64,000 nt of DNA from an uncultured Candidatus Saccharibacteria bacterium (GTDB lineage: Bacteria; Patescibacteriota; Minisyncoccia; Phycocordibacterales; Zambryskibacteraceae): the NCBI GenBank assembly GCA_964446535.1, contig CAYUOR010000001.1:71283-135282 (forward strand), given 5' to 3'. Each line of letters opens with the position of its first letter. The stretch's first letter is position 1. The position numbers and the translations under genes were made by a program. The notes beneath the pieces are model-generated. The model was not told where the DNA came from and searched no databases. It was given only the letters and a program-made list of their open reading frames with translations. Shown here one piece after another: positions 19,698 through 55,100 of this stretch.

Positions 19698-20093
19698 TTA
19701 CGGTATTGGACTCCAGGGTGGCTGTGGTCCTGGGCCTCCAGGCGGTAGAGCTCCGCCACTACCAGGAGGAGTGGCTCCGGGAGTCGGCGAGGGTCCTGGA
19801 AGAAACGCGTCTTCAAGAAAGGCGACGATACCCCAGACCGAGACCATAACGAAAAGAGCTATAAGACCCCAGATCATAAGCTTTTTGCCGGCCTCAACTG
19901 CCTTCTCGTCGCCCCCGACTCGAAAGATAAACTTAGCGAGTCCCCAGAAAAAAACTAGAAGCCCTATAGCCACGAGTACTCCTATTGTCGGATTTATAAG
20001 ATCGCCAAAACTCTGAAGAAGACCGCTAATCCCCGCTTGGGCGAAGGCGGTAGACGGCGCGAGTATTAAAAAAAGTAATAAGTAATTATTCAT
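19698..20093 (-). CDS. VirB2/TrbC-like small membrane protein paralog 3 with Pro/Gly-rich tail
   Basis: start taken at the internal ATG giving 'MNNYLLLFLILAPSTAFAQ' signal peptide; core 'LLVFFWGLAKFIFRVGGDEKAVEAGKKLMIWGLIALFVMVSVWGIV' nearly identical to paralog 2; C-terminal 'PGPSPTPGATPPGSGG'. Confidence 0.45.
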   Translation of the reverse strand: MNNYLLLFLILAPSTAFAQAGISGLLQSFGDLINPTIGVLVAIGLLVFFWGLAKFIFRVGGDEKAVEAGKKLMIWGLIALFVMVSVWGIVAFLEDAFLPGPSPTPGATPPGSGGALPPGGPGPQPPWSPIP

Positions 20094-33497: not shown

Positions 33498-33570
33498 TGC
33501 GCGATAGAGGACTTGAACCTCTGACCCTCCCCACGTCAAGGGGATGCTCTACCAACTGAGCTAACCGCGC
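33498..33570 (-). tRNA. tRNA-Val (anticodon GAC)
   Basis: hand-folded cloverleaf: acceptor GCGCGGT/ATCGCGC, anticodon loop TTGACGT, T-loop GGTTCAAGTCC; CCA not encoded. Confidence 0.75.
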
Positions 33571-33627
33571 GACGACGGAAATATTAACATTTTTCTTTAA
33601 ATTTGCTAGTATAGGCAAGCTCAAGCG

Positions 33628-33714
33628 GGAGGCGTGGCTGAGTGGTTGAAGGCACCGGTTTCGAAAACCGGCAGGTCCGCAAGGGTCTCAGAGGTTCGAA
33701 TCCTCTCGCCTCCG
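33628..33714 (+). tRNA. tRNA-Ser (anticodon CGA)
   Basis: acceptor GGAGGCG/CGCCTCC, anticodon loop TTCGAAA, long variable arm, T-loop GGTTCGAATCC; CCA not encoded. Confidence 0.75.
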
Positions 33715-33728
33715 CCCCCAAAATAAAA

Positions 33729-33800
33729 GGCCCTATCGTCTATCGGTTAGGACACGAGCTTTTCAAGCTCGGAAGCCGGGTTCGATTCCCGGTAGGGTCA
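33729..33800 (+). tRNA. tRNA-Glu (anticodon TTC)
   Basis: acceptor GGCCCTA/TAGGGTC, anticodon loop TTTTCAA, T-loop GGTTCGATTCC; ends 5 nt before tsaD ATG. Confidence 0.75.
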
Positions 33801-33805: not shown

Positions 33806-34879
33806 ATGAAAATTTTAGCAATAGAGACAAGTTGTGACGAAACCGCAGTCACGCTCTTGGATATAGACGGCCCTCTTGAAAAACCCAATATAAAAGTACT
33901 CGGCGACTCTTACCTTTCTCAAGCTAAGTTGCATGAAAAATATGGTGGCGTCTATCCAAACCTCGCCAAACGAGAACACGAAAAAAACCTACCAATTCTT
34001 CTTGAGAAAACGCTCAAAGAGTCTGGAGAAAGTTCAGAAAATCCAAATATAGATTATATTGCCGTAACGGAAGGGCCGGGCCTAGAGCCGGCACTCTGGA
34101 CTGGTATTACTTTCGCACTGGATCTCGCTAAGAGGTGGCAGAAGCCGATAATTCCCGTAAATCACATGGAGGGTCATGTTTTTTCTGTTCTTTTTAATGC
34201 TCGTGCTTCCTTAGAGCTTCCGGCATTGGCACTTCTCGTCTCCGGCGGCCATACGGAACTTGTCCTGGTGAAAGATTTCAGGAATTACGAAATTATAGGA
34301 AAAACCAGAGATGATGCTGTCGGTGAATCGTTCGACAAGGTGGCACGCATGCTCGGACTTCCCTATCCCGGCGGACCCGAGATCTCCAGACTTGCCGAGG
34401 AATCACGAATTGAAAAAGAAAGGGTCGAAATAGAGTTTCCGAGACCGATGATTCATTCCGACAATCTCGATTTTTCATTCTCAGGATTAAAAACTGCAGT
34501 GCTTTATAAATTGAAAACGAAAAAGAGTATTAGTGAAGAGTTTAAAAAAGAAGTAGCTCGCGCCTTTGAGGATGCGGCAGTAGCAGTTTTAATAGAGAAA
34601 ACGAATAAGGCGCTTTTGGAGCTTGGAGATATAAAAACTTTAATTGTCGCTGGAGGAGTGTCGGCCAATATTCATCTAAACCGCGAACTTGCCGGTTTGG
34701 TCTCTAAGTTTAAACATGTCAAACTCTACGCCCCCACAAGGTATCTATCAACCGACAACGCGGTAATGATCGGAATAGCGGCTTTTATCCGTGCCAGGAA
34801 GGAATCAGAGATTTTGAAGAAACAAGTATCAATAAGGGCGCGCGGTAATCTTTCTATTTCTTCGGCCCCATTACTATAA
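33806..34879 (+). CDS. tsaD: tRNA N6-adenosine threonylcarbamoyltransferase TsaD
   Basis: 'MKILAIETSCDETAV', 'VSGGHTELV', 'VAGGVSAN' Kae1/TsaD signatures. Confidence 0.85.
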   Translation: MKILAIETSCDETAVTLLDIDGPLEKPNIKVLGDSYLSQAKLHEKYGGVYPNLAKREHEKNLPILLEKTLKESGESSENPNIDYIAVTEGPGLEPALWTGITFALDLAKRWQKPIIPVNHMEGHVFSVLFNARASLELPALALLVSGGHTELVLVKDFRNYEIIGKTRDDAVGESFDKVARMLGLPYPGGPEISRLAEESRIEKERVEIEFPRPMIHSDNLDFSFSGLKTAVLYKLKTKKSISEEFKKEVARAFEDAAVAVLIEKTNKALLELGDIKTLIVAGGVSANIHLNRELAGLVSKFKHVKLYAPTRYLSTDNAVMIGIAAFIRARKESEILKKQVSIRARGNLSISSAPLL

Positions 34880-37800
34880 CTTTGTCGATAGGTGGTTTGG
34901 TGTCTGCATCTTTCTTTGCGGTAAGTATTTCTTTAACTGGCTCTTTGGTAATCTCGGTTGGTTTGGTTATATTCTTACCAATTGATTTAGCGCGAGCGAG
35001 CACTACCAGATACCAAGATTTTACAGAAGCTCTAATCGAGTTATGTTCCGGGTAAAGCGAGGTCCAAGTAAGAGATAAAGCTAAGAGGATAAATAGCGGT
35101 AAGACAAACCACCACTTGAAAACAAGTGAGGCGACTATACCGAGAACCAAACCCAGATCAACCACGACCCACTTGGTGATAAACCTTTTTCTAAGATTTC
35201 CCGGTGTATTTTTATAAAAGACATCTTTAAGGACATTTCCCAGAACGTAAAGGGCAATTACAAAAACCAATAGGCCATAAATTGATTTAGCGATATCACC
35301 CATACTTTCTGGATTAGCAACTATCGCCGTGGCTAATCCCCTAACAACCCCCAGACTTCCATTAGTGGTGTCGGAAGATTGAACTCCGACAACTGGAATT
35401 ATAGGAGTGGTTGTTGAGCCCGACGAATCAGCATCATTTTCAGTTTGTATATAAGAAGGAATTGGTTCAATACCCTGGGCTCTTAGGTTGTCTAAAAGAG
35501 CTTTAAAGGCCGCAATTTCATAAATCTGTGCTTCGTTCAGAGGAAATAGGCGCTGGCAGTATATTTCGTTTATTTTCTTCAGAGTAAGAATATAGACATA
35601 GCCTGTCGGGTCGGTGTGTCCCCATGGCTCCAGAATATCCTCGGCGTACTTGAGCTGGAAGAGCGAGACCGCCTCAAGGGTTGCGTCGTCAAAGACCCCG
35701 GTAAGCGAGACACCTTCGCGCATATCAAAATTTATCAGAAATGCCTGGAGCTTCAATACTTCCTGCGGATTATTGTTTAAATCTCTCCTCATATAATCTC
35801 TAAGGTAGAAACAGACATTAGGATCAGCTGGAACGGTTGTGGCACCAAGAACTTGTCCATCGTCTTCCGTATTGTCGGACGGCACGTAAGAATTCGGATT
35901 TGAGGCGTCTCCGTCAGAGTGACAACCCGGGTCAAGCGCATCTATTAGACCATCACCGTCATCATCTCTAGAATTTGAGCAGGGTGCATTTCCGCCGCCA
36001 CCTCCGCCGCCGCCGTTTGTCGTATCGTATTTGCATGGTAGAGCTTCGCCCCAGTTGCTCGCCTTATTATCTTCGCAAAGATTTGAACCACCCGGAACGT
36101 TGGTTTCGTCGTTATCGTTCGGATCGTATGAGTCGGGATTGTCGGCATTACCATCGCTGTGGCATCCTGGATCATCGGCATCGACAAAACCATCCTCATC
36201 GTTATCTATCGCATCTGAACAGATTGGAGACGGTGAGACACAGTCACCGTTCTGAGAAACAAGTCCCTGCGGCACCATTATCTGAATGCCGTCTAGGTTA
36301 GCACAAACATCTGTCGGATTTGTTTCATCACTGTCATTCGGGTCGTATGAATCGGGATTATTAGAATCCGCATCGGTATGACAACCAGGATCCGCGCTAT
36401 CTGCGACACCGTCATTATCATTATCAAACGTGTCAGAACATACGGCCCTAACCTGAACCGTGAGCGTCTGCTGGGTAGCTTTTGCACCGTGGCTATCTGT
36501 TGCGTCATAAGTAACAACATAATCTCCAACCGTATTGGTAAGGACAGTGTCTCCGCCGACAACAAGATTCGGCTCCGGATCGTCCTCGTCATCGTTTACC
36601 GTGGCATGACCGAGCGGATCAAAACTTCCACCCAAAGTAACGATTACCAGAGTATCTGCGGTAATAACCGGAGGCGTATTTTCATCGTCATCTTCTTCGT
36701 TAGTACATCCTGGATCATCCGGGAAGTCGATAAGGTTGTCGCCGTCATTGTCCATCCCGTCTGAGCATTCTGACGGTGGCGCGCTTACTTTTACCGTTCG
36801 GGTCTTTTCTGTTGCGGAGAGTCCGTCCGAATCAACTACGTTGTAGGTTATGACATAAGTACCGGTATTTGAAGTGTCAACCGTGTCGCCGGAAATCACG
36901 ACATCCCCCGTCAGATCGCCATCTTCCAGGTCTGTGGCGACAAACCCTGGATCAGCGTAAGGTTCAGAGCTTACAAGAATATTATGAGGATTCGGCCCGT
37001 CGATAGTTATGACTGGCGCCTGGTTTTCATGATTAATAAAGGTGCAAGAAACAATGTCATTTGAATCAATGGAAAGATCCGTGACACTAAGACCCTCTCG
37101 AGTACCCGAAGGAGAACCGTTTACGAGACACTTCGCGTCCAAAAGTTTGAAATTATTTTGCAAAACTTCTGTGACACTATAGACACCCTGATCAACCTCA
37201 AGAGAGGGCGTGAAACCGTCTGCCCCAGTGGTTTTTGAAACTGTCTGGGAGTTTTTTATCTCAAAGGTCCAACCTGCGGCAGGAAGTTGGTCGTCTGTTG
37301 TCGTTAGATCGTTATCGGAATCTAGAATCTTCTTTACAGTGATCGTACCACCGCAAAGTTCCTGTGCCAAATCAGCCAAATCATCAGCTAAAGTATCAAA
37401 GCCGGAAGTATAAACCGCATCAGAACTTGATATCGCTTTAAGGTTATTTACTTTAAGGTTGTCTCCGATACCTAGCGCGATGATGCGAGTACCTGAACCC
37501 TTAATTTCATTTGCCTTCGTTATAGCAAGCTTTAACGCCTCCGTTGAATCAGTCGGTCTGTTTGGATTTCCGTCAGAAGCAAATACAATGAGATTCGGAT
37601 GTTCGTCTCCTGTTCGAGGATCAAATGTGCCGAAAGCCTTACCAAGGCCGTCTGCCCAGTTCGTATTTCCGCCTGAGACTGGGGTATTTATCGCTATATG
37701 GATAAGTCCGAGGTTATTGGTAAAACTTTGAAGAACCTGACCATTAGTATCAAAATCAGTTACTGAAAAGAGCGTATCTGTGCCGGGTAAAAATGAGTCA

Positions 37801-38072
37801 ACAAAGCCGTTGAAGGCGCTTTTCATCTGATTTAGCTCACTTGTACTTATGCTTCCGGAGCTATCTAAAACAAGAGCTATATCAAAGCCACACGATGCCT
37901 TTAATTCTGGGTTCGGAGCTGGGGTTGGATTACTGCTTCCCGTAGCCAGAGTCATGGCGGGAGTAAATATAAATAGCAGAGAGATTATAAAGGCGCTGGC
38001 CGTGGCAGGATTTAGATTAGGTTGTTCTCGTTTAGCTTTATTGTTCATAGTCCATAAATTACGTTTCCACAC
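34854..38072 (-). CDS. Large surface protein: signal/TM, VWA domain, Ig-like domain, tandem acidic Cys-containing Ca-binding-type repeats, PG_binding_1 domain, C-terminal multi-TM anchor
   Basis: 1072 aa; VWA MIDAS 'DIALVLDSSGSIS ... IVFASDGNPN' (aa ~62-235); Ig-like 'ITIDGPNPHNILVSSEPYADPGFVATDLEDGDLTGDV' (aa ~352-432); four 'CSDxxDNDxDGxxDxxDPGCHxDxDxxNPDSYDPND' repeats plus poly-Gly (aa ~435-740); 'RDYMRRDLNNNPQEVLKLQAFLINFDMREGVSLTGVFDDATLEAVSLFQ' PG_binding_1; several TM helices aa ~930-1005. Confidence 0.6.
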   Translation of the reverse strand: MWKRNLWTMNNKAKREQPNLNPATASAFIISLLFIFTPAMTLATGSSNPTPAPNPELKASCGFDIALVLDSSGSISTSELNQMKSAFNGFVDSFLPGTDTLFSVTDFDTNGQVLQSFTNNLGLIHIAINTPVSGGNTNWADGLGKAFGTFDPRTGDEHPNLIVFASDGNPNRPTDSTEALKLAITKANEIKGSGTRIIALGIGDNLKVNNLKAISSSDAVYTSGFDTLADDLADLAQELCGGTITVKKILDSDNDLTTTDDQLPAAGWTFEIKNSQTVSKTTGADGFTPSLEVDQGVYSVTEVLQNNFKLLDAKCLVNGSPSGTREGLSVTDLSIDSNDIVSCTFINHENQAPVITIDGPNPHNILVSSEPYADPGFVATDLEDGDLTGDVVISGDTVDTSNTGTYVITYNVVDSDGLSATEKTRTVKVSAPPSECSDGMDNDGDNLIDFPDDPGCTNEEDDDENTPPVITADTLVIVTLGGSFDPLGHATVNDDEDDPEPNLVVGGDTVLTNTVGDYVVTYDATDSHGAKATQQTLTVQVRAVCSDTFDNDNDGVADSADPGCHTDADSNNPDSYDPNDSDETNPTDVCANLDGIQIMVPQGLVSQNGDCVSPSPICSDAIDNDEDGFVDADDPGCHSDGNADNPDSYDPNDNDETNVPGGSNLCEDNKASNWGEALPCKYDTTNGGGGGGGGNAPCSNSRDDDGDGLIDALDPGCHSDGDASNPNSYVPSDNTEDDGQVLGATTVPADPNVCFYLRDYMRRDLNNNPQEVLKLQAFLINFDMREGVSLTGVFDDATLEAVSLFQLKYAEDILEPWGHTDPTGYVYILTLKKINEIYCQRLFPLNEAQIYEIAAFKALLDNLRAQGIEPIPSYIQTENDADSSGSTTTPIIPVVGVQSSDTTNGSLGVVRGLATAIVANPESMGDIAKSIYGLLVFVIALYVLGNVLKDVFYKNTPGNLRKRFITKWVVVDLGLVLGIVASLVFKWWFVLPLFILLALSLTWTSLYPEHNSIRASVKSWYLVVLARAKSIGKNITKPTEITKEPVKEILTAKKDADTKPPIDKVIVMGPKK
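35852..36770. repeat. Intragenic tandem repeats encoding 4 copies of a ~40-75 aa acidic Cys-containing module
   Basis: recurring gaYccgaaYgaYaaYgaYga-type DNA segments; near-identical copies at about 36305-36440 and 36090-36220. Confidence 0.55.
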
Positions 38073-38333: not shown

Positions 38334-40403
38334 ATGAATGATAAGTTTCTTAAGCCCTATAATCCCAACGAAATAGAGCCAGAAATATATAAAATTTGGG
38401 AGAAAAGTGGATTTTTTAACCCAGATAACCTGCCCGGTAAAAGGGGTCCTGCCTTTACTATTATTATGCCTCCGCCTAACGCCAACGGGAGTCTTCACTC
38501 TGGACACGTACTCTTCATCACTCTGGAGGATATTATGGTGAGGTTCAAGAGAATGTGTGGCTTTAGAGCTCTTTGGCTCCCAGGAGCAGATCATGCTGGT
38601 TTTGAAACACAGGTCGTTTTTGAAAAAAAACTTGAAAAAGAGGGCAGCTCCAGGTTCGGTATGGACCCGACCGAGCTTTATCAAAGGATTCTTACCTTTA
38701 CACTCGAGAATAAGAAGCATATGGAAAGCCAGGTTAAATCCCTCGGCGCCTCTTGTGACTGGTCACGAGAAAAGTTCACTCTAGACCCAGATATCATAGA
38801 AAAAACTCAAGAAACATTTATAAAAATGTTTGAGGACGGATTAATTTATCGCGGAGAGAGAACAATCAACTGGTGCTCAAAACATGCTACCTCTCTTTCT
38901 GAAGTGGAAACTGAGTCTGTTGAAGAGGTTTCACCTTTTTATTATTTTCGATACGGCCCATTCGAGATAGGTACCGTTAGACCCGAAACTAAATTCGGTG
39001 ATAAGTATGTTGTTATGAATCCTAATGATAAGCGTTATTTAAAATACAAACATGGAGAGACTCTTGAGGTTGAGTGGATAAACGGACCGATAAAAGCAAC
39101 TGTTATAAAAGACGATGCGGTCGACATGGAGTTTGGCACCGGTGTTATGACTATTACACCCTGGCACTCACAAATAGATCTCGAGATTGCGGAGCGCCAC
39201 GGACTTGATGTAGAGCAGATTATAGACTGGCGAGGAAAACTTTTGCCGATAGCTGGAGAATTTAGTGGTATGAATATAAAAGAAGCTCGTCCAAAAATCG
39301 TTGAAAAGCTAAGAGCTAAGGGTCTTCTCACCAGGATTGATGAAAATTATAAAAATGTAATTAAGAAATGTTACAAGTGTAATACCGTTATAGAACCGCA
39401 AGTGAAAAAGCAGTGGTTCGTCAAAATGGAGCCTTTAGCGAAAATGGCGCTAAAGGCTGTAAGTGACGGGAAAATTAAATTTATTCCTGATAATTATGAA
39501 AAAATTTTCCGATATTGGATGGAGAATACAACTGACTGGAACATTTCTCGTCAGATAGTTTGGGGTATTTCTATCCCAGCTTGGTTTCGTGGAGAAGATG
39601 TCGCGGTTAGCCTTGATAAGCCCTCTGGCGAAGGCTGGGCGAGAGATCCTGATACGTTTGATACATGGTTTTCAAGCGGTCAATGGCCTCTTTTCATGAC
39701 TGGCTATCCGGACGGCAAAGATTTTAAAAAATTTTACCCTACGGACGTGATGGAGACTGGGCACGACCTTATATTCAAATGGGTGCCGCGCATGGTTATC
39801 TTTGGCCTATATTTAACCAAAAAAGTGCCTTTTCACACCGTTTACCTCCACGGCCTGGTTAACGATGCCCAGGGTAAAAAGATGAGCAAGTCGAAAGGTA
39901 ATGTTGTTGATCCGCTTGTATTAACCGGAAAATACGGTACTGATGCCCTGCGTATGACTCTTGTTGTCGGTAATACTCCTGGCACCGATCTCTCGCTTAG
40001 AGAGGAGAAAATAAAGGGTTATAAAAATTTTGCCAACAAGCTCTGGAATATAACTCGTTTTGTACTCTCTCGAGAAGATAGGGGTGCCTTGGATAAAAAA
40101 CTTGTTAAAGAGTTCAATTCTCTCGCAAAGGATGTGACGAATGACATGGAAAACTTCAGATTCTATTTGGCGGCTGAAAAGCTTTATGCCTATATCTGGC
40201 ACACCTTTGCTGATAAAATTATTGAAGAGAGTAAAAATTCTGAGGAAGCGGGAAAAACTCTTTATTACATTCTAGAGAATTCACTAAAACTTCTTCACCC
40301 ATTTATGCCGTTTATTACAGAAGAAATCTGGCAAGAACTGCGTGCTAAGAATAAAAAGATAGGTAAGGAAGACCTTCTGATGATTGAACCCTGGCCAGTA
40401 TGA
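38334..40403 (+). CDS. valS: Valyl-tRNA synthetase, short form without C-terminal coiled-coil
   Basis: 'PPPNANGSLHSGHVL' HIGH region of ValRS type, CP1 editing region, 'KMSKSKGNVVDP' KMSKS; 689 aa. Confidence 0.8.
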   Translation: MNDKFLKPYNPNEIEPEIYKIWEKSGFFNPDNLPGKRGPAFTIIMPPPNANGSLHSGHVLFITLEDIMVRFKRMCGFRALWLPGADHAGFETQVVFEKKLEKEGSSRFGMDPTELYQRILTFTLENKKHMESQVKSLGASCDWSREKFTLDPDIIEKTQETFIKMFEDGLIYRGERTINWCSKHATSLSEVETESVEEVSPFYYFRYGPFEIGTVRPETKFGDKYVVMNPNDKRYLKYKHGETLEVEWINGPIKATVIKDDAVDMEFGTGVMTITPWHSQIDLEIAERHGLDVEQIIDWRGKLLPIAGEFSGMNIKEARPKIVEKLRAKGLLTRIDENYKNVIKKCYKCNTVIEPQVKKQWFVKMEPLAKMALKAVSDGKIKFIPDNYEKIFRYWMENTTDWNISRQIVWGISIPAWFRGEDVAVSLDKPSGEGWARDPDTFDTWFSSGQWPLFMTGYPDGKDFKKFYPTDVMETGHDLIFKWVPRMVIFGLYLTKKVPFHTVYLHGLVNDAQGKKMSKSKGNVVDPLVLTGKYGTDALRMTLVVGNTPGTDLSLREEKIKGYKNFANKLWNITRFVLSREDRGALDKKLVKEFNSLAKDVTNDMENFRFYLAAEKLYAYIWHTFADKIIEESKNSEEAGKTLYYILENSLKLLHPFMPFITEEIWQELRAKNKKIGKEDLLMIEPWPV

Positions 40404-41107
40404 TAGATCCTGATATCATCTTTTACGCGCTTCTGGGTGGAATTATGCCGTCTCTTATCTGGCTTGCTTTCTGGTTGCGTGAGGATTACAGACACCCGGA
40501 GCCTAAAGCCTTGATTTTAAAAACATTTCTTTTAGGGATGGCTTCAGTCGGCCTTGTTCTACCTTTTCAAGATGCGATTGATAACTGGCTGCCGGGCATG
40601 GCTTTTGCGGCGATACTTCTTTGGGTTGTGTTTGAGGAGACTTTTAAGCTCGGGGCTGCTTATGTCGGTGGTATAAACACTACGGCCGACAATGAGCCGA
40701 TAGATCCGATGATCTATATGATTACTGCGGCACTCGGCTTTGCGGCTATGGAAAATACACTTTTTATTATAGAACCTTTGATTGGCGAGAAGATCTTAGA
40801 CGGCGTTATAACGGGGAATCTTCGCTTTATAGGAGCAAGCCTTCTCCATGTTGTATCTTCCGGAATCGTGGGGGCCTTTCTCGCCTTTTCATTTTATAAA
40901 TCTAGGCATGAGCGTATTAAAATGGTTGCCCTCGGCTTGCTGCTCGCAATTATTACTCATACGGCATTCAACTTGCTACTTATCAAGTGGAATACTTCCG
41001 GAGCAATTTTGGGCTTCGGATTAGTCTGGATAGGAGTAATCCTTCTTCTTCTTGCATTTGAGCGAGCAAAAGCAATTGCGCGCCAAAGAAAGTGGGACTA
41101 TAATTAG
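40400..41107 (+). CDS. PrsW-family intramembrane protease-like protein
   Basis: polytopic; 'VVFEETFKLGAAY' (EExxK) and 'FAAMENTLF' motifs of PrsW/YpdC glutamic-type proteases. Confidence 0.55.
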   Translation: MIDPDIIFYALLGGIMPSLIWLAFWLREDYRHPEPKALILKTFLLGMASVGLVLPFQDAIDNWLPGMAFAAILLWVVFEETFKLGAAYVGGINTTADNEPIDPMIYMITAALGFAAMENTLFIIEPLIGEKILDGVITGNLRFIGASLLHVVSSGIVGAFLAFSFYKSRHERIKMVALGLLLAIITHTAFNLLLIKWNTSGAILGFGLVWIGVILLLLAFERAKAIARQRKWDYN

Positions 41108-41113: not shown

Positions 41114-41572
41114 ATGCAAAACAAAAGATCTTTTTTCGAAAGACTTACGGGTGCGGTTAGATTAGATGAGGGACCCTTGGAAGAGACGGTAGAGCTAAAC
41201 AAACCCGCTCCGAAACCCAGCATCTTTGAAGAAGCTGAAGAAGAGGCGCAACTTACTGTCGATGTATACAACACCCCATCAGAAATTGTCATAAAAACTA
41301 TGGTGGCGGGAGTCCGCCCAGACGACCTCGATGTCTCCATCACGAGAGACTCGGTTACTATCCGTGGCAAACGAAGCGAGGATAGAACGGTAACTGGTGA
41401 AGATTATCTCCATAGAGAACTTTACTGGGGCTCATTCGCCCGTACCATCACCCTGCCGGAGGAGGTTGACGTTGATAATGCCGAAGCTGTTGAAAAATAC
41501 GGTATGTTGGTCCTCCACCTACCGAAGATAGACAAAAACCGACAGACAAAACTGCGGGTTAAAGGAAACTAG
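41114..41572 (+). CDS. Hsp20/alpha-crystallin family small heat-shock protein
   Basis: alpha-crystallin domain 'VDVYNTPSEIVIKTMVAGVRPDDLDVSITRDSVTIRGKR ... GSFARTITLPEEVD'. Confidence 0.8.
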   Translation: MQNKRSFFERLTGAVRLDEGPLEETVELNKPAPKPSIFEEAEEEAQLTVDVYNTPSEIVIKTMVAGVRPDDLDVSITRDSVTIRGKRSEDRTVTGEDYLHRELYWGSFARTITLPEEVDVDNAEAVEKYGMLVLHLPKIDKNRQTKLRVKGN

Positions 41573-41574: not shown

Positions 41575-41647
41575 TGTCGAGAGGCGGGCTCGAACCGCCG
41601 ACCCTTCGCTCTTCAGGCGAATGCTCTACCAACTGAGCTATCTCGAC
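41575..41647 (-). tRNA. tRNA-Phe (anticodon GAA)
   Basis: acceptor GTCGAGA/TCTCGAC, anticodon loop CTGAAGA, T-loop GGTTCGAGCCC; CCA not encoded. Confidence 0.75.
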
Positions 41648-41871
41648 GTATTAAGAAGTTCCATTGCGTTGTTGAAATTGTCCATTGCCGGTTTAAGAAA
41701 CGGTTGAATGAAGAGATAACCAGCAATAATTGGTACAACAATAATGGCCACTTTTATTAATCCCCAGAGCACAGCCCAACGAGCCTTTTTATCTATTTTG
41801 CGCAATATCTCGTTGTTCTCTTCAGAAAGCTTTAGGGTGCGCTCCAAAAGCACTTTGTCCTCGGGATTCAT
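41638..41871 (-). CDS. Hypothetical small membrane protein
   Basis: 77 aa; N-terminal 'KVLLERTLKLSEENNEILRKIDKK' then TM 'WAVLWGLIKVAIIVVPIIAGYLFI'; 3' end overlaps tRNA-Phe by ~10 nt. Confidence 0.25.
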   Translation of the reverse strand: MNPEDKVLLERTLKLSEENNEILRKIDKKARWAVLWGLIKVAIIVVPIIAGYLFIQPFLKPAMDNFNNAMELLNTSR

Positions 41872-41951
41872 GGGAAGAAATTATAGCAGAATACTCGCCT
41901 CGCGTCGAAGCGGGTCGGTTTTTCTCAAATTCCGTGATATATTCAAAATTC

Positions 41952-42023
41952 GCCCCCATAGCTCAACGGATAGAGCATTCCCGTCCTAAGGGAGAGATGT
42001 TGGTTCAATTCCTGCTGGGGGCA
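41952..42023 (+). tRNA. tRNA-Arg (anticodon CCT)
   Basis: acceptor GCCCCCA/TGGGGGC perfect, anticodon loop GTCCTAA, T-loop TTCAATT with one T-T mismatch in T-stem; CCA not encoded. Confidence 0.65.
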
Positions 42024-49101: not shown

Positions 49102-52100
49102 CTACTGACCTGTTGAGTAAGCCGATCTCGACTTCGGTCCGAAGTAACCGCTTGAAGGCAAGATTGCCTTAGCTCTCTGCCACCTGATTACGGCGGACTG
49201 AGTTGCGGGACCGAAATAAGTACTCTCATTCCCTACCGAGCCAAGACCGGAGGACGAAACGGTAAAGCCCTGGGAGTTAAGATACTTCTGGAGACAGCGC
49301 ACATCCTCACCGGATGAACCGAGAGTTAGGTCTCTAGTAAAGGAACACGTTCCTGAAGGCAGGCCGGCCCCCTGAGAGATGAGAAAATTTATGAGGGTCT
49401 GAAGCTCTAAGATTTTGGCTGTGAGGATTGAGATCTGCTGGGCTTCAGGGAGCGAGTTGAAGTTTGAAGGTAAAACACCAATAGATGACGGGATAGAAAC
49501 TGGGCTACCGCCTCCACCACCGCCACGTCCTCCACCGCCCGAAGAGACTGGCGGATCTTGAGGCGTTGGAATCGGCGTTGGCGGGTTAATAGATTCTGGG
49601 GCGGTGAAGCTTACCGTGGCCGGATCAGAATAGTTTTCCTGATCGTCGTAGACAAAGAGTGAGTAGTAATAGACTGTTCCGGGAGTAACAGAAGTATCGG
49701 TAAAGCTAGAGCCAGTGACTCGAGCTACTTCAAAATTCGCATCGTATTGATTGAGGTAGCCGGTGGTGGAGCGCAAGATTGCCACACCAGAGTAGCCTGT
49801 GAAAGATATTGGACTCCAGTTTAGGATGATAGAGCCAGGTGAGGCTGTGACTAGGTTGATTCTTGGTGGCCGACTTCTTACGGTGAAGGTGGTGTTATTG
49901 GAAAGCCCAGTAAGGTTGTTGGCGACTGATCTTGCTCTGGCATTGTAGCTACCAGAATTAAAGCCAGAAACAACAACCTCATGAGAAGTTCTTAAGATGG
50001 TGCTCACAGCCGACTGGGTCCCATAAGCAGTGGTTGCGCCGTATTCAACTTGAGATGTTGCCGGTCTATCCGTGTTCCACCTGAATCTTGCTTCTCCTTG
50101 TCTAACTTGAACCGAGAAATTTGAAACAGTCGGCGCTGCAGTAATCGGCGGTGCGGACGCCACCGTGACAGAGGTACTTGTATTAGAATTTCCCCCACTT
50201 CCCGTGCAGGTAAGGGTGTATGTGGTGTTTGCGGTTGGTGTTACCGACTGCGTTCCGCTTGTGCTCTTCGTACCACTCCAGCCGTTTGATGCTGTGCAAC
50301 TCGTGGCATTTGTTGAACTCCAGGTGAGAGTGCTTGAATTGCCAGAAGTGACTGACGTCGGGTTAGCCGAAAGAGAAACGGTTGGGGCGGGGGTTGGTGA
50401 TGGTGGCGGAGGCGAGGTCTGACCGCCAGAATTGTTGTATGTTGGTAAGGCTGATTCAGAGGTCGCCATGGCGAAATCATCCATATACATCCATGTGTCC
50501 CTATTACGATAGAGACGGCTGTCCACGAACTCGCCCCAGGTTGTGGGCATTCTAAGAATTCTGTGTCCTCTAGACACCTGCTCAGGTGGTAGTATCCAAT
50601 TAAAGTTCGGTGTAACACCGTGGATCCATTCGGCAACCTTAACCCAATCCTGTCCGAGTGGTCGTATCCACGCCTCATACTTCCCTGTGCCGTCAGAGGT
50701 GTCCATATGGAGCTTAACAAGTTGCCAGCGGTTCGGGGTAATAAATTCATTTCTATTTTGCTGATACAGTTTCCATTGATCCCAATCGGGTTCGGTCAAT
50801 ATATCCGCGCCAGTACCAAGATTTTTCATAAAGGCGCTACCAGTATCGTAACTTTCAGGAGCAGGATTATCTAAGACAAAGAGCCAGTTGTGGTATTGGC
50901 CGGTACCCGGGCACGGATAAGACCTATTGCACGGATAGATAAATTTGCCACCAGTAAAACCGCTATTCTGAAATTGATTCTTGTTAATGTATACCCAGAA
51001 CTGGAACCAAACGTTGCTAGGAATATAGTTTTCAAATTCCGTACCATCTCCTCCCATCTGAAGATAGAAATCAGTTTGGCCATTCAGGGTTGCTGATAAG
51101 CCTTCTATTGCGAGAGCGCGCGAACCGCCACTTGGAAATGGGCTAGTTGTTCCGGGAATATTTGTAACGGTGTATAGGTAACCACCAGCACCTCCAGGCC
51201 TTGTTGTTTCGTCTTTAAGTCCGGTCCAACCAGCTGATGTAAAAGCGGAAGCTTTCGTCGCTCCAGAATCAAATTTTCCTACTGGATACTCAAAGTTATC
51301 AAATAAGAGGAGACCTGATGGTGTTGGTGCGGGCGGTGTTGGTGCGGGCGGTGTTGGTGCGGGCGGTGTTGGTGTCGGCACGGTCGTCACCGTAATAGAA
51401 GTATTAGCGCTGGCACTCCCTCCACTTCCCGTGCAGGTAAGGATGTATGTGGTGTTGGTGGTGGGCGTTACCGACTGCGTTCCGCTTGTGCTCTTCGTGC
51501 CGCTCCAGCCGTTTGATGCTGTGCAACTCGTGGCGTTCGTTGAACTCCAGGTGAGGGTGCTTGAACCGCCTTGAGTAATTGAAGTTGGATTGGCCGAAAG
51601 AGAGACGGTTGGGGCTGGTGTCGGCGATGGAGGTGGTGGCGGTGCTGGGTCGGTATAGGGGTTGAGGAAGTCATCTGCAACCCAGCCGTCAAAAGAGGTA
51701 TCAAAGTTAATTCCCCACCACCAGTAATTTGTGCCAGAGAGAGATGCGTAAGTGGGTCCGCCGGTAACAGTACCAGTCGCACCAGAGGGTTGTGTACCGA
51801 GCGAGGTACCGGCTGCTGTTGAGCGGACATTCACCGTTGCGTTCGTCTGAATACGACTACCAGTAGTAAAGCGCGTTGGCGGCACAATTTGTGTTGGCGG
51901 AGGAGGTGGAGGTAGTGGCGTAGAGCCGTATGTCGGCAGGGCTGATTCTGAAGTCGCCATGGCGAAATCGTCCATGTAGAGCCAAGCATCGTAGTTCGTA
52001 TTATCAGAGAAGTTGGCTGTGCCCCAAGTGGATGGCATTCTCAAAACTCTATGCCCGCCCTCAGAACCACTGGGAATGTCCCAGACGAAGCCGGGTGTAA

Positions 52101-55100
52101 CTCCGCCAATCCATTCGGCAACCTTTGTCCAAGAACCTCCCATAGGTCGAAGCCACATTTCCCAAGAGTTACCAGAGGTTCTCGTGGTGTTGAAATGCAT
52201 TTTCACCAAGGTCCAGCGGTTTTCCCTCGGCCACTCGGAAAGAGTTTGTTGTCCGATGTTGCCGGTAGAATACGGATCGTAATTTGGTCCAGTGTATTCA
52301 ATGTTACTTAACCCTGCCGATTCAGTGAGACCAAAAAGCACATCACCTTGTGAAGGGTTGCCAAACGGCCACGGATCCATAAGCGGACGGTCAGCACGTG
52401 CCGCTGAGTGGGCAATCCAGAGATGGCTGTGACAGCCGTAGCTTCCGTTGCATGGATAAAGGAATTTGTTGCGTGCAGCAAATCTTGAAAGTTGGCTTCC
52501 ATAATATTGTGGATATACCCAGAATTGGAACCAAACGTCACCTGGGATGTAGTCGTCGTAAGCCGCAGAGGCACCACCACCGAGTTGTAGATAGAAATCA
52601 GTCTGATTCCTGTAAGTACCAGGACCTCCGGAGAAGTCGCCCATGGTCGTTGGCAGACCTTCCATAAGTAGTGCCCGTGAGCCAGTCCCAGGAAATGCGC
52701 CCGTGTATCCAGGGATGCTTGTAACTGTCGAAAGGTAACCCGATGCACCGCCGGGTCTGGTTGTCTCGTCTTTAAGATCTGTCCAGCCAGCCGATGTAAA
52801 CGCAGAAGCTTTGGTAGCGGCGGAATCAAACTTACTAACTGGATACTCAAAGTTATCAAAGAAGATAAGTCCGGAAGGTGTTGGTGTCGTAGTATTAGAA
52901 ACCGTTACGGAAACTATAGGAGAGGTGGCCAAGTTCCCTGCTGCATCTCTCGCCACTGCCGTAAGATTGTGCGTACCATTTGTGGCGGAGGTGGTGTTCC
53001 ACACAATAGAGTATGGTGCCGTGGTGTCCTCTGCTCCGAGATTTGCTCCGTCTAGTCTAAACTGGACGCCTACTACTCCCGTGTTATCCGAAGCGTTGGC
53101 AGAGACTGTGACGGAAGAACCAGAAACCGTTGAGCCACTAGAAGGCGTACTAATAGAGACCGTTGGAGGAGTTGTGTCCGAGGGGGAAGGCGGTGCTGAC
53201 GATGCGGGTGGTATATCTGTCGGCCAACCAGGAGTAATACGAAGTCTGTCGAGTGCGACATACATCTGGCTAAGAGACGAGCCGAGAGCCGAGCCGCCGA
53301 CCATATCATCCCAGTAACCAAACAGGGGTGAGAATAGACCGTAGAAACCGTAACCAGGATAAGGATTCAATCCCTGACTTTCACAACCACGGGCAGCCCT
53401 TGATACATTCGTAGCACCCTCGGGTCTGTAATAAATAGAGATGCATCTGTCAGCTGGGTTTGAAGACCTCATATCAACAACAAATGCCATCCAAACCCAC
53501 TGATCCGCATACGGTCTCCAGTCCTGACTATCTACGACATCTGGTCCAGCCCCACCAGCAAGAATCGTCCAGCGTGGTGGATTTTCTCCGAAGTGTATTC
53601 CATTTCTGTTTCCTTCTGCTCCTGTGCTAGTTCGATATTTAAAGTCTAAGGTTTTATTTCTGTGAGCCCAGAAACCGCCACTTGTATTGTCTATCGCGTT
53701 AAGAAGAGTGGCGGGCATTTTTAGCATAAAGGAGAAGACGGTAAAGTTATGATTGCCACCGGCAAACGGCGCTGTCTCAACGGGTGCCCAACCAGCGCTG
53801 TCTTCGTTGTCGGTGCACGTCGCACAGGGTTCTGGAATTGCGCGCCAACCGCCGGACGGACCGTAACCGTAATTTGCGCCCCACTCCATCCTTACAAGTC
53901 CGGGTTGAGACAAAACGTCTGACGCAACCTGCGTTTCATAATCTCTTGAATATAGAACGGTGCTCGTCTCTGGCAGACCGTCAGGGTTATTGGCGGTACC
54001 GACACTTGGCGGTGGGGGTGGCGGTGGAGGAGGTGCGGATGAATTGGAGACATTTACCACGATATTGGCCGAGGTTACAGTGTTACCTGAAGTGTCTCTA
54101 GCAATAGCGGTGATGGTGTGGAAGCCATTAGAAACGCTTGTGGTATTCCAGCTTATAGAATACGGTGATGTGGTATCTTCTGGACCTATGGATACCGTAT
54201 CAACCCTAAACTCAACACCAGCAACGCCAACATTGTCTGAAGCGTTGGCTGTAATACTCGTTGTACCAGAAACGGTAGCGCTACTTGCTGGTGAGGTGAT
54301 AGAGACACTCGGTGGTGTTGTATCAGATGGTGGAGGAGGCGAAGAAGGTGGTGGTGTAGAGCCGCCACGCGCAGAGATGGCTCTTAGTTTGAAATAGTCA
54401 TGCTGTCCATCAAAAGTTGAAATAGAGGCACGACCGGCGATAGCGCCGTTGTCGTTAGTTAAGCCGGCGATCCTTGTCGCACTTGAGTCGGTGAAAGTTA
54501 TCTGCGGACTCGAGTCGTTTCCAATCCAGCCGGGGTCGCCGGGTTTCGTCGGACCGTGGTCAACTACCCAGATGTTAAGTGTGACATTCCCGCCGACCCC
54601 ACCCGATGCTGCCAAACGCATTGTATAAAAATTTCCGCCAGTAAAGGTAACTGGTATAGCGAAGGATTGAACGTTGGTGCGCGCTCCGTTGTTATATCGT
54701 TGAATGATTACTCCCCCGTTTTCAATAGTCATACCGTAACCGTTATCGACGCCAGCGTTGTCCCACCTGACACCGGGACCAACGAGACGTGTCGAGGTAT
54801 TTGCGCGCGCCGTCACCTGTGCCTCATGATCAATGCTTCCCGGAGAACTCGTGTAGCGGATTGCTACATCGTTGTCGTCAACAATATCGAGATCAAAGTT
54901 TACCGAGTCCCAGGTCGCACCCTTTATTTCGTTAACCCAGCGACCGGCGTATGGATTGGTATTAAAGTTGTCAGAATATTCGGCAACTTGCGCGAAGCTT
55001 GTGTCAGCATCAAAGCGCGCCAGACTGACAGAGAGCCACATCAAAGTAAAGGAAGCGAAAAGGAAAAGAGCCCAGTGGTAGTGAGAGTGGTACTCGTGCT

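What the first reader, a model, noticed from the sequence alone, without database searches (positions are those of the whole stretch)
34854..38072. 1072-aa surface protein combining VWA, Ig-like, acidic Cys repeats, peptidoglycan-binding domain and a C-terminal polytopic anchor
The domain order is VWA with intact MIDAS, then a DUF5011-type Ig-like domain, four thrombospondin-type-3/dockerin-like 'DxDxDGxxD...DPGCH...NPDSYDPND' repeats plus a Gly10 run, then a PG_binding_1 domain, then ~4 C-terminal TM helices. This is an unusual host-matrix-adhesin-like architecture. A PG-binding module on the surface of a monoderm CPR cell may bind the peptidoglycan of another, host, bacterium. The gene is convergent with tsaD and overlaps it by 26 nt, and is transcribed divergently from valS across a 260-nt AT-rich region.
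Basis: partly seen in the sequence, partly recalled or inferred. Interest (0 to 1): 0.55.

Follow-up and report, generated by a model that had tools for sequence, protein, structure and literature searches.

The report
Wall-and-membrane-anchored VWA surface protein, Patescibacteria
This is a real 1064–1072-residue cell-surface protein of an ultrasmall Patescibacteria (Parcubacteria-type) bacterium, with an adhesin-like metal-binding head on a calcium-binding stalk; its peptidoglycan-binding-like domain sits next to the membrane anchor and most likely holds the protein in the cell's own wall rather than gripping a host's wall.

Summary
It has a signal peptide and a VWA domain with an invariant MIDAS. 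There are two DUF5011 Ig domains, not one, and four acidic Cys repeats. NCBIfam already models these repeats as NF033662, and their closest solved relative is the Ca2+-binding C-rich domain of teneurin-4. The glycine run is Gly8, not Gly10. Then come a divergent PG_binding_1-like domain, three TM helices plus one amphipathic helix (not four TMs), and a Lys-rich tail.

The PG-binding assignment falls below Pfam's cutoff for this protein alone. It holds at family level: 39 of 42 relatives hit PF01471, the profile matches PG_binding_1 structures, and the top fold hit is SleC.

The PG-binding-like domain is always the last extracellular domain. It either ends the protein or precedes 1–3 TM helices. 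The 3-TM cassette that includes it carries many unrelated ectodomains across Paceibacteria. The window also encodes a PBP transpeptidase and MreB. Self-wall anchoring is therefore more likely than host-peptidoglycan binding.

This is an ordinary adhesin-like architecture on an undescribed, lineage-restricted anchor cassette. Interest is moderate to low.

The parts
34854..38072 (-). Whole ORF (1072 aa from GTG; stop codon included). The likely true start is the ATG at 38048, giving 1064 aa.
   Evidence: ORF; P0001, 100% identical, 1064 aa; orthologs start at the equivalent Met; sequence around the starts
37944..38048 (-). Signal peptide (residues 9-43): a basic n-region, a hydrophobic h-region, and a conserved small-x-Ala|Thr-Gly cleavage-like site. 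It has no lipobox.
   Evidence: Hydropathy peak at residues 25-43; orthologs end the h-region with ALA|TG, VFA|TG or AFA|TG; no lipobox or LPXTG. Cleavage itself is inferred.
37353..37892 (-). VWA domain (residues 61-240) with MIDAS D70-x-S72-x-S74...T137...D167. The Cys pair C61/C240 closes the domain.
   Evidence: PF00092 E 4e-15, above cutoff; MIDAS residues and both Cys invariant in 14 sequences; Foldseek matches to ANTXR2/CMG2 (TMt 0.77-0.79, rmsd about 3 Å), TRAP, LapA vWFA and Mfa5
37026..37349 (-). CnaB/SpaA-type (prealbumin-like) β-sandwich stalk domain (residues 242-349) with the conserved Cys pair C315/C343.
   Evidence: SpaA_4 PF24514 E 0.0045, below cutoff; homologs carry PF24514/PF17802/PF19403; AF2 models it as all-β with pLDDT about 78-87; Cys invariant
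36780..37016 (-). First DUF5011-type bacterial surface Ig-like domain (residues 353-431).
   Evidence: PF16403 best stretch 355-429, profile 1-71 of 71; AF2 pLDDT 83-90
36675..36770 (-). Acidic Cys repeat 1 (residues 435-466; C436...C456), a short form without the NPDSYDPND tail.
   Evidence: NF033662, 4 stretches; motif scan; Cys invariant
36444..36674 (-). Second DUF5011-type Ig-like domain (residues 467-543).
   Evidence: Second PF16403 stretch and InlK_D3 510-541; phmmer hit to the Ig domain 2kpn, E 3e-6; AF2 pLDDT 78-85
36309..36443 (-). Acidic Cys repeat 2 (residues 544-588; C545...C564, then the DPGCH...NPDSYDPND tail).
36237..36308 (-). Short Cys-bracketed segment VCANLDGIQ...GDC (residues 589-612; C590/C611), conserved in close orthologs.
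   Evidence: Sequence; Cys conserved in 9 of 14 sequences; the same motif is visible in P0002-P0010 and P0028. Structure unknown (AF2 pLDDT <50).
36093..36224 (-). Acidic Cys repeat 3 (residues 617-660; C618...C637).
   Evidence: Best NF033662 stretch, 617-642; Cys invariant
35988..36092 (-). Linker with Cys pair C666/C680 and the Gly8 run (residues 686-693).
   Evidence: Sequence. A poly-Gly run just upstream of the PG-binding-like module is a family feature (consensus of A4).
35853..35984 (-). Acidic Cys repeat 4 (residues 697-740; C698...C717). This is the copy that aligns to the teneurin-4 C-rich Ca2+-binding domain.
   Evidence: phmmer hit to 7plp, E 0.005, query 264-288 of the fragment; Ca ligands described in PMC9058538
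35538..35819 (-). Divergent PG_binding_1-like helical domain (residues 752-845), bracketed by the invariant Cys pair C754/C839.
   Evidence: PF01471 at 16.6-18.4 bits, below the cutoff of 23; 39 of 42 family members hit PF01471, best 2.6e-10; profile A1 against PDB hits only PG_binding_1 domains among its top 10 (5tv7, 7rum, 1lbu, SleB, gp144); AF2 pLDDT 86-97; Foldseek top hit SleC 9h68, prob 0.94; Cys invariant
35352..35537 (-). Conserved helix FPLNEAQ..EI.AF..LL..LRAQG (residues 847-865) followed by a disordered Ser/Thr/Pro-rich linker (to about residue 907).
   Evidence: A1 alignment; AF2 helix at fragment 108-126 with high pLDDT, and fragment 130-168 at pLDDT <50
34974..35351 (-). Conserved membrane anchor (residues 908-1033): an interfacial helix (908-917), three TM helices (924-952, 957-985, 990-1006), and an amphipathic helix (1008-1033).
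   Evidence: Hydropathy; AF2 pLDDT 84-95; no Pfam or NCBIfam model matches it; the family has only 173 representatives out of 1.84 billion, always C-terminal
34857..34973 (-). Lys-rich predicted cytoplasmic tail (residues 1034-1072) ending in the conserved ...VIVMGPKK.
   Evidence: 9 K/R, net charge +3; the terminal motif recurs in 32 of 201 anchor-bearing proteins, concentrated among the best matches to the anchor profile

Best explanation
The gene encodes a Sec-exported, type-I-like surface protein of a Patescibacteria (Minisyncoccia/Paceibacteria-type) cell. Its membrane-distal end is a VWA domain with a complete MIDAS, which acts as a metal-dependent ligand-binding head. The presumed ligand is a surface protein or polymer of the partner or host cell.

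The head sits on a stalk made of one CnaB/SpaA-like β-sandwich, two DUF5011 Ig domains and four disulfide-stapled acidic repeats. The repeats probably bind Ca2+ and stiffen the stalk. A poly-Gly hinge is also part of the stalk.

The base is a lineage-specific anchor cassette. It consists of a divergent PG_binding_1-like domain that docks non-covalently into the cell's OWN peptidoglycan, a flexible linker, a three-helix membrane anchor, and a basic cytoplasmic tail with a conserved terminal motif. The protein is thus held by both membrane and wall.

Shown: the domain identities, their order, the conservation, and the modular reuse of the cassette. Inferred: topology, Ca2+ binding, peptidoglycan binding and which peptidoglycan, and the adhesive function and its ligand.
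For: Domains:
- VWA, two PF16403 domains and four NF033662 repeats all score above curated cutoffs.
- MIDAS and six of the nine ectodomain Cys pairs are invariant in the 14-sequence alignment.
- The VWA fold is nearest to receptor and adhesin I-domains: ANTXR2, TRAP, LapA, the Aeromonas adhesin, Mfa5. The best PDB sequence hit is the MIC2 I-domain.
- The repeat matches the teneurin-4 C-rich domain, which binds three Ca2+ ions and stabilises the ectodomain (PMC9058538).

PG-binding-like domain:
- 39 of 42 relatives hit PF01471.
- The profile matches PG_binding_1 domains of solved wall enzymes.
- A confident AF2 helical bundle has SleC as its top fold hit.

Anchor role:
- Among 157 proteins with the module it is always the last globular domain. 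29 end within 25 aa after it, and 105 continue into 1-3 TM helices.
- One relative has two tandem copies at its C-terminus (P0028).
- The 3-TM anchor occurs in only 173 representative clusters, always C-terminal. It is coupled to the module in 106 of 142 proteins. Of the 36 without it, 28 are 279 aa or shorter, mostly truncated sequences, and 8 are 369-517 aa.
- 45 other cassette-bearing proteins carry He_PIG, DUF5011, fn3, PKD, DUF11, PA14 and other ectodomains, and VWA is not among the 25 families listed for them. The base is constant and the tip varies.

Own wall: the window encodes a PBP transpeptidase, MreB, FtsA and FtsZ. A second, 2019-aa surface protein in the same window ends in a canonical PG_binding_1 domain.

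Topology: N-terminal signal-like region, basic TM1-TM2 loop and tail, and no Cys beyond residue 839.
Against: - No experiment exists for any member of this family.
- This protein's own PG_binding_1 score is below Pfam's cutoff, and the Foldseek E-value for the module is only 0.6.
- Peptidoglycan binding by PG_binding_1 domains is itself documented for only a few proteins.
- Topology was inferred from hydropathy, charge and AF2, not from a dedicated predictor.
- The acidic repeats lack one teneurin Ca ligand (DPGC in place of DPDC) and were modelled at low confidence.
- The ligand of the VWA head is unknown.
- A published study of related Paceibacteria proposes that proteins with peptidoglycan-binding domains act in host attachment (PMC10936435).
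- Eight proteins of 369-517 aa that carry the TM anchor lack the module, so the coupling is not absolute.
Confidence: 0.6

Rival explanations
1. The PG_binding_1-like domain is an offensive or attachment module that binds the peptidoglycan of a host bacterium, and the protein bridges the episymbiont membrane and the host wall.
For: The domain is a genuine relative of PG_binding_1. Patescibacteria are epibionts (general knowledge). A metatranscriptomic study found highly expressed extracellular proteins with peptidoglycan-binding domains in Minisyncoccaceae and Yanofskyibacteriaceae and proposed a role in host attachment (PMC10936435). TM-less relatives ending in the module could in principle be released.
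Against: In this protein the module is the most membrane-proximal extracellular domain, about 85 residues from TM1. More than 700 residues of stalk and head lie distal to it. It is the constant element of a cassette attached to many unrelated ectodomains, which is the pattern of an anchor rather than a specificity determinant. The cell has its own peptidoglycan machinery. In the cited study the hosts were methanogenic archaea, which from general knowledge of Methanothrix-type envelopes have no murein.
Confidence: 0.15
2. The protein is not an adhesin. It is a structural or envelope-organising protein, such as a strut or spacer tying membrane, wall and surface layer together, or a Ca2+/Mg2+-buffering acidic surface polymer. 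The VWA domain would mediate self-assembly with other envelope proteins of the same cell.
For: The ectodomain is extremely acidic. Each acidic repeat has a net charge of -11 to -15, and every ectodomain segment is net negative. The gene sits in a conserved housekeeping neighbourhood (valS, tsaD, trxB, ftsZ) and keeps this position in a 74%-identical ortholog, which suggests a core, vertically inherited function. VWA domains also mediate intra-complex contacts, as in mussel PTMP1 and collagen VI among the fold hits.
Against: The closest VWA structures are mostly ligand-binding heads of receptors and adhesins with an intact MIDAS. The head-on-stalk order with a distal VWA is typical of adhesins. 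No partner gene is conserved next to it.
Confidence: 0.15
3. The three-helix membrane domain and the conserved cytoplasmic tail are more than an anchor. The protein would be an outside-in sensor or mechanical coupler that reports engagement of the VWA head to a cytoplasmic partner, by analogy with apicomplexan TRAP/MIC2 tails.
For: The TM region is more conserved than a simple anchor needs. A13, P20, D25, Y41, L90 and P91 of alignment A2 are invariant, and mean column identity is 46%. The extreme C-terminal motif ...VI[VI]MGPKK recurs in close and intermediate relatives. The best PDB sequence hit for the head is the MIC2 I-domain.
Against: No recognisable signalling domain is present. The tail is short and predicted disordered. 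No conserved neighbouring gene points to a partner. The motif appears in only 32 of 201 anchor-bearing proteins.
Confidence: 0.08

Closest known systems
Large modular bacterial adhesins with a vWFA/MIDAS head (P. fluorescens LapA vWFA 9no5, the Aeromonas hydrophila large adhesion protein vWFA 9das, the P. gingivalis Mfa5 pilus tip protein 6to1) and the Gram-positive pilus tip adhesins RrgA, GBS104 and SpaC (the last three from general knowledge)
   Same: An extracellular VWA domain with a complete MIDAS sits on a stalk of Ig-like or CnaB-like β-sandwich domains with Ca2+-binding acidic repeats. Fold matches have probability 1.0.
   Different: There is no LPXTG or sortase signal and no lipobox. 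There is no RTX or T1SS C-terminal signal. The VWA is N-terminal rather than inserted into a CnaB domain. Anchoring is by a PG_binding_1-like domain plus three TM helices. Sequence identity to the solved VWA domains is only about 15-25%.
Apicomplexan TRAP/MIC2 adhesins
   Same: The overall logic is the same: signal peptide, N-terminal VWA/I-domain head, thrombospondin-related stalk element, C-terminal membrane anchor and a short conserved cytoplasmic tail. The MIC2 I-domain is the best PDB sequence hit (E 0.002), and TRAP structures are among the fold hits.
   Different: This is analogy only beyond the VWA domain. The stalk elements differ (TSR versus acidic Cys repeats and Ig domains). TRAP/MIC2 have one TM and this protein has three. 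TRAP/MIC2 have no peptidoglycan-binding domain. No link to motility is known for this protein.
Teneurin C-rich Ca2+-binding domain (PDB 7PLP), thrombospondin type 3 repeats and NCBIfam NF033662 'acidic double-disulfide repeat'
   Same: The C-x-D-x2-D-N/D-D-x-D-x3-D-x2-D-P-x-C core aligns to teneurin-4 residues 838-857. Most of the acidic Ca ligands and the C838-C857-equivalent disulfide are retained. In teneurin-4, two of the Ca sites are TSP-T3-like (PMC9058538). The NF033662 hit is above cutoff with 4 copies.
   Different: Each unit has two Cys instead of teneurin's six. The third ligand cluster is altered (DPGC instead of DPDC). The Pfam scan at E<=1 listed neither TSP_3 (PF02412) nor Dockerin (PF00404) for this protein. 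Ca2+ binding was not tested.
PG_binding_1 (PF01471) domains of cell-wall enzymes (SleB/SleC, phiKZ gp144 endolysin, Streptomyces Zn DD-carboxypeptidase 1lbu, 5tv7)
   Same: It has the same helical-bundle fold and the core motif (L..FL ... G.F[GD]..T..AV..FQ).
   Different: No catalytic domain is attached. The domain is enlarged to about 95-105 aa, has an extra C-terminal segment (PWG..TGYVY..T..KIN..C) and an invariant disulfide bracket. The canonical DGxFG is replaced by TGvFD in this subfamily. This protein scores below the Pfam cutoff.
Extracellular proteins with peptidoglycan-binding domains of Paceibacteria reported from methanogen-parasitising enrichments (Kuroda et al. 2024, PMC10936435) and from Ca. 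Nealsonbacteria (bioRxiv 10.1101/2022.04.20.488981)
   Same: They come from the same bacterial group and are the same type of protein: secreted or surface proteins combining Ig-like domains with a peptidoglycan-binding domain. They have already been flagged as candidate host-interaction factors.
   Different: Those reports do not describe a VWA head, the acidic repeats or the 3-TM cassette. Whether their proteins belong to the same module family was not tested here.

Membership tests
VWA domain (PF00092), MIDAS-containing subclass | HMM score above the Pfam gathering cutoff | tested here: met
   56.9 bits against 23.8, residues 64-220; VWA_2 at 33 bits against 27
VWA domain (PF00092), MIDAS-containing subclass | Complete MIDAS motif DxSxS...T...D | tested here: met
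   D70, S72, S74, T137 and D167 are present and invariant in 14 aligned homologs
VWA domain (PF00092), MIDAS-containing subclass | Rossmann-like α/β fold superposable on solved I-domains | tested here: met
   Foldseek prob 1.0; ANTXR2/CMG2 TMt 0.77-0.79 and rmsd 2.8-3.1 Å over 177-183 columns. AF2 confidence for this region is only moderate.
VWA domain (PF00092), MIDAS-containing subclass | Metal-dependent ligand binding | not testable with these tools
   Needs biochemistry
Bacterial surface Ig-like domain (PF16403, DUF5011) | HMM score above cutoff | tested here: met
   89.7 bits against 27, two stretches; the best is 355-429 covering profile 1-71 of 71
NCBIfam NF033662 acidic double-disulfide repeat | HMM score above cutoff, in repeated copies | tested here: met
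   87.9 bits against 41, 4 stretches; four motif matches at ORF positions corresponding to C436, C545, C618 and C698
NCBIfam NF033662 acidic double-disulfide repeat | Two disulfides per unit, as the name implies | tested here: inconclusive
   Each core here contains only two Cys, giving one putative disulfide. The additional Cys pairs (590/611, 666/680) lie between units.
PG_binding_1 (PF01471) | HMM score above the Pfam gathering cutoff for this protein | tested here: not met
   16.6 bits for the full protein and 18.4 bits for the fragment, against a cutoff of 23; only profile positions 3-40 of 57 align
PG_binding_1 (PF01471) | Homology demonstrable through the family (transitive or profile evidence) | tested here: met
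   39 of 42 module homologs hit PF01471, best E 2.6e-10. 34 of 45 further cassette proteins hit it. The top 10 PDB hits of profile A1 are all PG_binding_1-type domains, best 5tv7 at E 2e-4.
PG_binding_1 (PF01471) | Helical-bundle fold matching solved PG_binding_1 domains | tested here: inconclusive
PG_binding_1 (PF01471) | Actual binding to peptidoglycan | not testable with these tools
   Needs a sacculus-binding assay
Thrombospondin type 3 repeat (PF02412) / Dockerin (PF00404) | HMM match to the family model | tested here: not met
   Neither family appears among the Pfam hits at E<=1 for this protein. The resemblance is limited to the DxDxDG-type Ca-binding motif, shared through the teneurin C-rich domain.
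Sortase-anchored Gram-positive pilus or surface adhesin | C-terminal LPXTG-type sorting signal | tested here: not met
   No LPxT[GAS] anywhere in the protein. The C-terminus is a 3-TM domain with a 39-aa tail.
SpaA/CnaB-type prealbumin-like stalk domain (PF24514 and relatives) | HMM score above cutoff | tested here: not met
   18.2 bits against 27.3. Homologs carry PF24514/PF17802/PF19403 at the same position, and AF2 gives a confident β-sandwich.

The most novel reading that the evidence does not exclude
The C-terminal 330 residues would be an undescribed, Paceibacteria-restricted surface-protein anchoring and sorting cassette. It consists of a disulfide-bracketed PG_binding_1-like domain, a conserved helix, a linker, a conserved three-helix membrane domain, and a cytoplasmic tail ending in ...VIxMGPKK. 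In this reading it couples wall, membrane and a cytoplasmic partner. It would be used by these ultrasmall episymbionts to display a repertoire of interchangeable ectodomains (VWA, He_PIG, fn3, PKD, PA14 and others) in place of sortase/LPXTG. The membrane domain and tail would have an active role in targeting, clustering at the host contact site, or outside-in signalling, rather than being a passive anchor.
Probability: 0.2. Interest if true: 0.6.

Novelty: new variant of a known kind. Interest (0 to 1): 0.35.

Why it matters
How Patescibacteria/CPR cells attach to their hosts is largely unknown outside a few Saccharibacteria models. This protein is a concrete candidate. It has an intact MIDAS head, which is mutable and testable, on a Ca2+-dependent stalk.

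Its base defines a conserved, lineage-specific anchor cassette that marks a whole set of surface-displayed proteins in Paceibacteria genomes. The cassette HMM could serve as a bioinformatic handle to enumerate the surfaceome of uncultured Parcubacteria.

The analysis also tempers a reading already present in the literature, that peptidoglycan-binding domains in these proteins bind the host. Their position and modularity fit self-wall anchoring better.

Every individual domain is of a known type, and no function has been demonstrated. The finding is useful but not surprising.

Tried and rejected
- An exact-sequence lookup of the NCBI protein P0001 for its source contig found nothing, so the organism was inferred from relatives only. 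The best is 74% identity to a Minisyncoccia MAG.
- The full-length AF2 model from a 14-sequence alignment was poor overall (pLDDT 54.8). It was uninformative for the acidic repeats and linkers and was used only for the β-sandwich and VWA parts.
- Foldseek on the C-terminal model found no meaningful match for the 3-TM domain. All its hits had E >3 and were unrelated membrane proteins.
- A scan of the window for paralogs of the module with the subfamily HMM found only this gene. The 2019-aa neighbour's PG_binding_1 domain belongs to a different, canonical subfamily.
- PADLOC gave no hit, and PHROGs gave one marginal VWA-region hit of unknown function. A defence or phage origin was rejected.
- A literature search for 'acidic double-disulfide repeat' returned nothing. 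A search for CPR with von Willebrand and adhesion terms returned nothing relevant.
- A sortase, lipoprotein or T1SS-type adhesin was considered and rejected: there is no LPXTG and no lipobox.
- I considered whether the fourth C-terminal helix is a TM. I rejected this because of its R/K/S content, its sub-threshold hydropathy, and because it would place the basic tail outside.

Full report

A 1072-codon ORF with a GTG start occupies 34854..38072 on the minus strand. An identical protein is in NCBI as a 1064-aa call starting at the ATG of residue 9 (P0001). Orthologs begin at the equivalent Met, so 38048 is the likelier start.

The gene converges on tsaD (33806..34879) with a 26-nt overlap. It diverges from valS (38334..) across 261 nt of 26.8% GC, against 46% for the window. 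A 74%-identical ortholog in a Minisyncoccia MAG keeps the same valS-gene-tsaD arrangement and the same overlap (L001). It is therefore a stable chromosomal gene and not an insertion.

Relatives all come from Patescibacteria of the Parcubacteria/Paceibacteria/Minisyncoccia type: Zambryskibacteria, Lloydbacteria, Kaiserbacteria, and MAGs labelled 'Saccharibacteria'.

**2. Domain anatomy**

Pfam finds VWA at residues 64-220 (56.9 bits against a cutoff of 23.8). It finds PF16403 (the DUF5011-type surface Ig domain) at 89.7 bits in two copies, 355-429 and about 468-541. It gives a weak SpaA_4 prealbumin-like hit at 277-348 and a sub-threshold PG_binding_1 hit at 770-808 (16.6 bits against 23).

NCBIfam already models the acidic Cys repeats as NF033662, 'acidic double-disulfide repeat', at 87.9 bits against 41 with four copies. 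A motif scan finds these four copies only in this ORF of the window.

The MIDAS residues D70, S72, S74, T137 and D167 are invariant across 14 homologs.

The 18 cysteines form nine sequential pairs: 61/240, 315/343, 436/456, 545/564, 590/611, 618/637, 666/680, 698/717 and 754/839. All lie N-terminal to the membrane domain. Six pairs are invariant in the 14-sequence alignment, and the other three are conserved among the closest orthologs.

- A β-sandwich (242-349) precedes the Ig domains. AF2 models it confidently.
- There are two DUF5011 domains.
- The Gly run is eight residues, 686-693.
- The C-terminus has three hydrophobic helices (924-952, 957-985, 990-1006) followed by an amphipathic helix (1008-1033), not four TMs.

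**3. Topology**

Topology was inferred from several features:
- The N-terminus has a basic n-region, a 17-19-residue h-region and a small-x-Ala|Thr-Gly site. This site is conserved in orthologs as ALA|TG, VFA|TG or AFA|TG.
- There is no lipobox or LPXTG.
- Every ectodomain segment is net acidic, and the repeats carry -11 to -15 each.
- The membrane region (residues 909-1033), which includes the TM1-TM2 loop NLRKRFITK, is net +9, and the 39-residue tail is net +3.

With three TM helices this gives N-out/C-in, which fits the positive-inside rule and the restriction of Cys pairs to the outside. I could not run a dedicated topology predictor.

**4. The head and stalk**

The full-length AF2 model is poor overall (pLDDT 54.8) but usable for the VWA and β-sandwich domains. 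Foldseek places the VWA closest to extracellular ligand-binding I-domains:
- ANTXR2/CMG2 (TMt 0.77-0.79, rmsd about 3 Å)
- mussel PTMP1 and complement factor B
- Plasmodium TRAP
- the vWFA domains of the LapA and Aeromonas giant adhesins
- the Mfa5 pilus tip protein

The Ig domains match internalin K. The best PDB sequence hit of the head is the Toxoplasma MIC2 I-domain (E 0.002).

The acidic repeat aligns to the teneurin-4 C-rich domain (7PLP, E 0.005). The paper on that structure shows three Ca2+ ions, two of them coordinated as in thrombospondin type 3 repeats, and a calcium-dependent stabilisation of the ectodomain (PMC9058538). In the alignment the first and third teneurin Cys and most acidic ligands are retained, but DPDC is DPGC here.

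The Pfam scan at E<=1 listed neither TSP_3 nor Dockerin, and the repeat already has its own curated family.

**5. Is the PG-binding assignment right?**

For this protein alone it fails the Pfam cutoff. At family level it holds:
- I built a module alignment (A1, 42 sequences). It shows an invariant Cys bracket (C754/C839) and the core L..FL...G.F[DG]..T..AV..FQ motif.
- 39 of 42 members hit PF01471, best E 2.6e-10.
- The profile's top ten PDB hits are all PG_binding_1-type domains of wall enzymes: 5tv7 (E 2e-4), an endolysin, the Zn DD-carboxypeptidase 1lbu, SleB and phiKZ gp144.
- AF2 gives a confident helical bundle (pLDDT 86-97).
- The only meaningful fold match is the PG_binding_1-bearing SleC (prob 0.94, rmsd 3.1 Å over 83 columns, E 0.6).

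I conclude that it is a divergent, enlarged, disulfide-bracketed relative of PG_binding_1. Binding to peptidoglycan remains untested.

**6. Whose peptidoglycan?**

Four observations favour the cell's own wall.

(a) Position. In 157 proteins carrying the module it is always the last globular domain. 29 proteins end within 25 residues after it with no other anchor. 105 continue through a linker into 1-3 TM helices. 23 have a tail without a detected TM. One relative ends in two tandem copies (P0028). This is the pattern of non-covalent wall-anchoring domains.

(b) Proximity. In this protein the module lies about 85 residues from TM1, followed by a helix and a disordered linker. More than 700 residues of stalk and head lie distal to it.

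(c) Modularity. I profiled the 3-TM domain (A2) and searched it against 1.84 billion representatives. It found only 173 proteins at E<=1e-3, always C-terminal. 106 of 142 also carry the module. Of the 36 without it, 28 are 279 aa or shorter, mostly truncated sequences, and 8 are 369-517 aa. 45 other cassette-bearing proteins carry He_PIG, DUF5011, fn3, PKD, DUF11, RGI-lyase, PA14 or F5/8-C ectodomains, and VWA is not among the 25 families listed for them. The base is constant and the tip varies.

(d) The cell has a wall. The window encodes a PBP2-type transpeptidase, MreB, FtsA and FtsZ. A second giant surface protein in the window (49102..55161, 2019 aa) ends in a canonical PG_binding_1 domain preceded by a poly-Gly run.

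The host-binding idea is not new. Kuroda et al. proposed it for highly expressed proteins with peptidoglycan-binding domains in Minisyncoccaceae and Yanofskyibacteriaceae (PMC10936435). Their hosts were methanogenic archaea, which fits self-anchoring at least as well. A Nealsonbacteria study instead linked such proteins to the symbiont's own envelope. Host binding is not excluded. I give it about 0.15.

**7. Best mechanism**

The protein is a Sec-exported, adhesin-like surface protein. A MIDAS-dependent VWA head sits on a CnaB/Ig stalk stiffened by Ca2+-binding disulfide repeats, with a poly-Gly hinge. It is held at its base by a PG_binding_1-like domain docked in the cell's own wall and by a three-helix membrane anchor with a basic cytoplasmic tail.

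Domain identity, order, conservation and cassette modularity are shown. Topology, Ca2+ binding, peptidoglycan binding, adhesion and the ligand are inferred.

Rivals are host-peptidoglycan binding, a structural envelope role, and a signalling or coupling role for the conserved TM domain and the ...VIVMGPKK tail.

**8. Comparison and novelty**

Functionally the protein resembles vWFA-headed modular adhesins (LapA-type, Mfa5, Gram-positive pilus tip adhesins) and, by analogy, TRAP/MIC2. It is not a member of the sortase or T1SS adhesin classes, because it has no LPXTG and a different C-terminus.

All ectodomain modules belong to known families. The VWA head with its SpaA-like domain is shared at about 45-55% identity by well over a hundred Patescibacteria and other proteins.

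The undescribed part is the composite C-terminal cassette. No Pfam or NCBIfam model covers its membrane domain. The family is small and lineage-restricted. I found no paper describing it.

I rate the finding a new variant of a known kind and moderately interesting (0.35). It is a sound candidate host-interaction protein and a useful marker cassette for the Paceibacteria surfaceome, but it is not surprising to a specialist and has no experimental support.

Noticed in passing
window 49102..55161 (-): A 2019-aa Thr/Ser/Gly/Pro-rich ORF has Big_7 Ig domains and a canonical PG_binding_1 domain, above the Pfam cutoff, at its extreme C-terminus (residues 1950-2009). A poly-Gly run precedes that domain and no TM follows it. 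It is a second large surface protein in the same window with a C-terminal peptidoglycan-binding domain. It coincides with a region of higher GC (about 0.51).
   Followed up: partly
window 34857..34880 (-); also P0002-P0008, L001, L004 and others: The extreme C-terminus ...VIVMGPKK (variants VIIIGPKK, VIILGPEK, xEPKK) is conserved in 32 of 201 proteins carrying the 3-TM anchor, although it sits at the end of a disordered, otherwise variable Lys-rich tail. It could be a cytoplasmic recognition or sorting motif. It remains unexplained.
   Followed up: partly
window 35994..36017 (-) (residues 686-693); consensus of alignment A4: A poly-glycine run of 8-13 residues recurs just upstream of the PG_binding_1-like module in most cassette-bearing proteins, and also in the 2019-aa neighbour. 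It looks like a conserved hinge between stalk and anchor.
   Followed up: partly
P0080: A protein labelled 'VWA domain-containing protein, partial [Nanoarchaeota archaeon]' shares 48% identity with the VWA/SpaA-like head. This is either mis-binning or transfer of the head module between CPR bacteria and DPANN archaea. A Phycisphaerae hit (P0093) also carries the head.
   Followed up: no
window 38334..40403 (+): The ValRS gene is only 689 aa and has the same length in the ortholog locus L001. From general knowledge this is shorter than typical bacterial ValRS, suggesting a compact CPR form that lacks part of the usual C-terminal region.
   Followed up: no
window 33498..33800 and 41575..42023: A cluster of three tRNA genes lies between the thioredoxin reductase gene and tsaD, just upstream of the tsaD/adhesin pair. 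Two more tRNAs lie downstream of the Hsp20-like gene.
   Followed up: no
window 16001..20000: GC content rises to 0.505-0.52 against about 0.45 for the window, over ORFs 16653..17732 and 17841..18878. No rRNA was detected by Rfam. The cause was not examined.
   Followed up: no
window 40400..41107 (+) and 41114..41572 (+): Judged by eye from the translations, a polytopic membrane protein that looks like a CPBP/Rce1-type protease and an Hsp20-like small heat-shock protein follow valS. The same pair follows valS in L001, so the whole block is syntenic.
   Followed up: no
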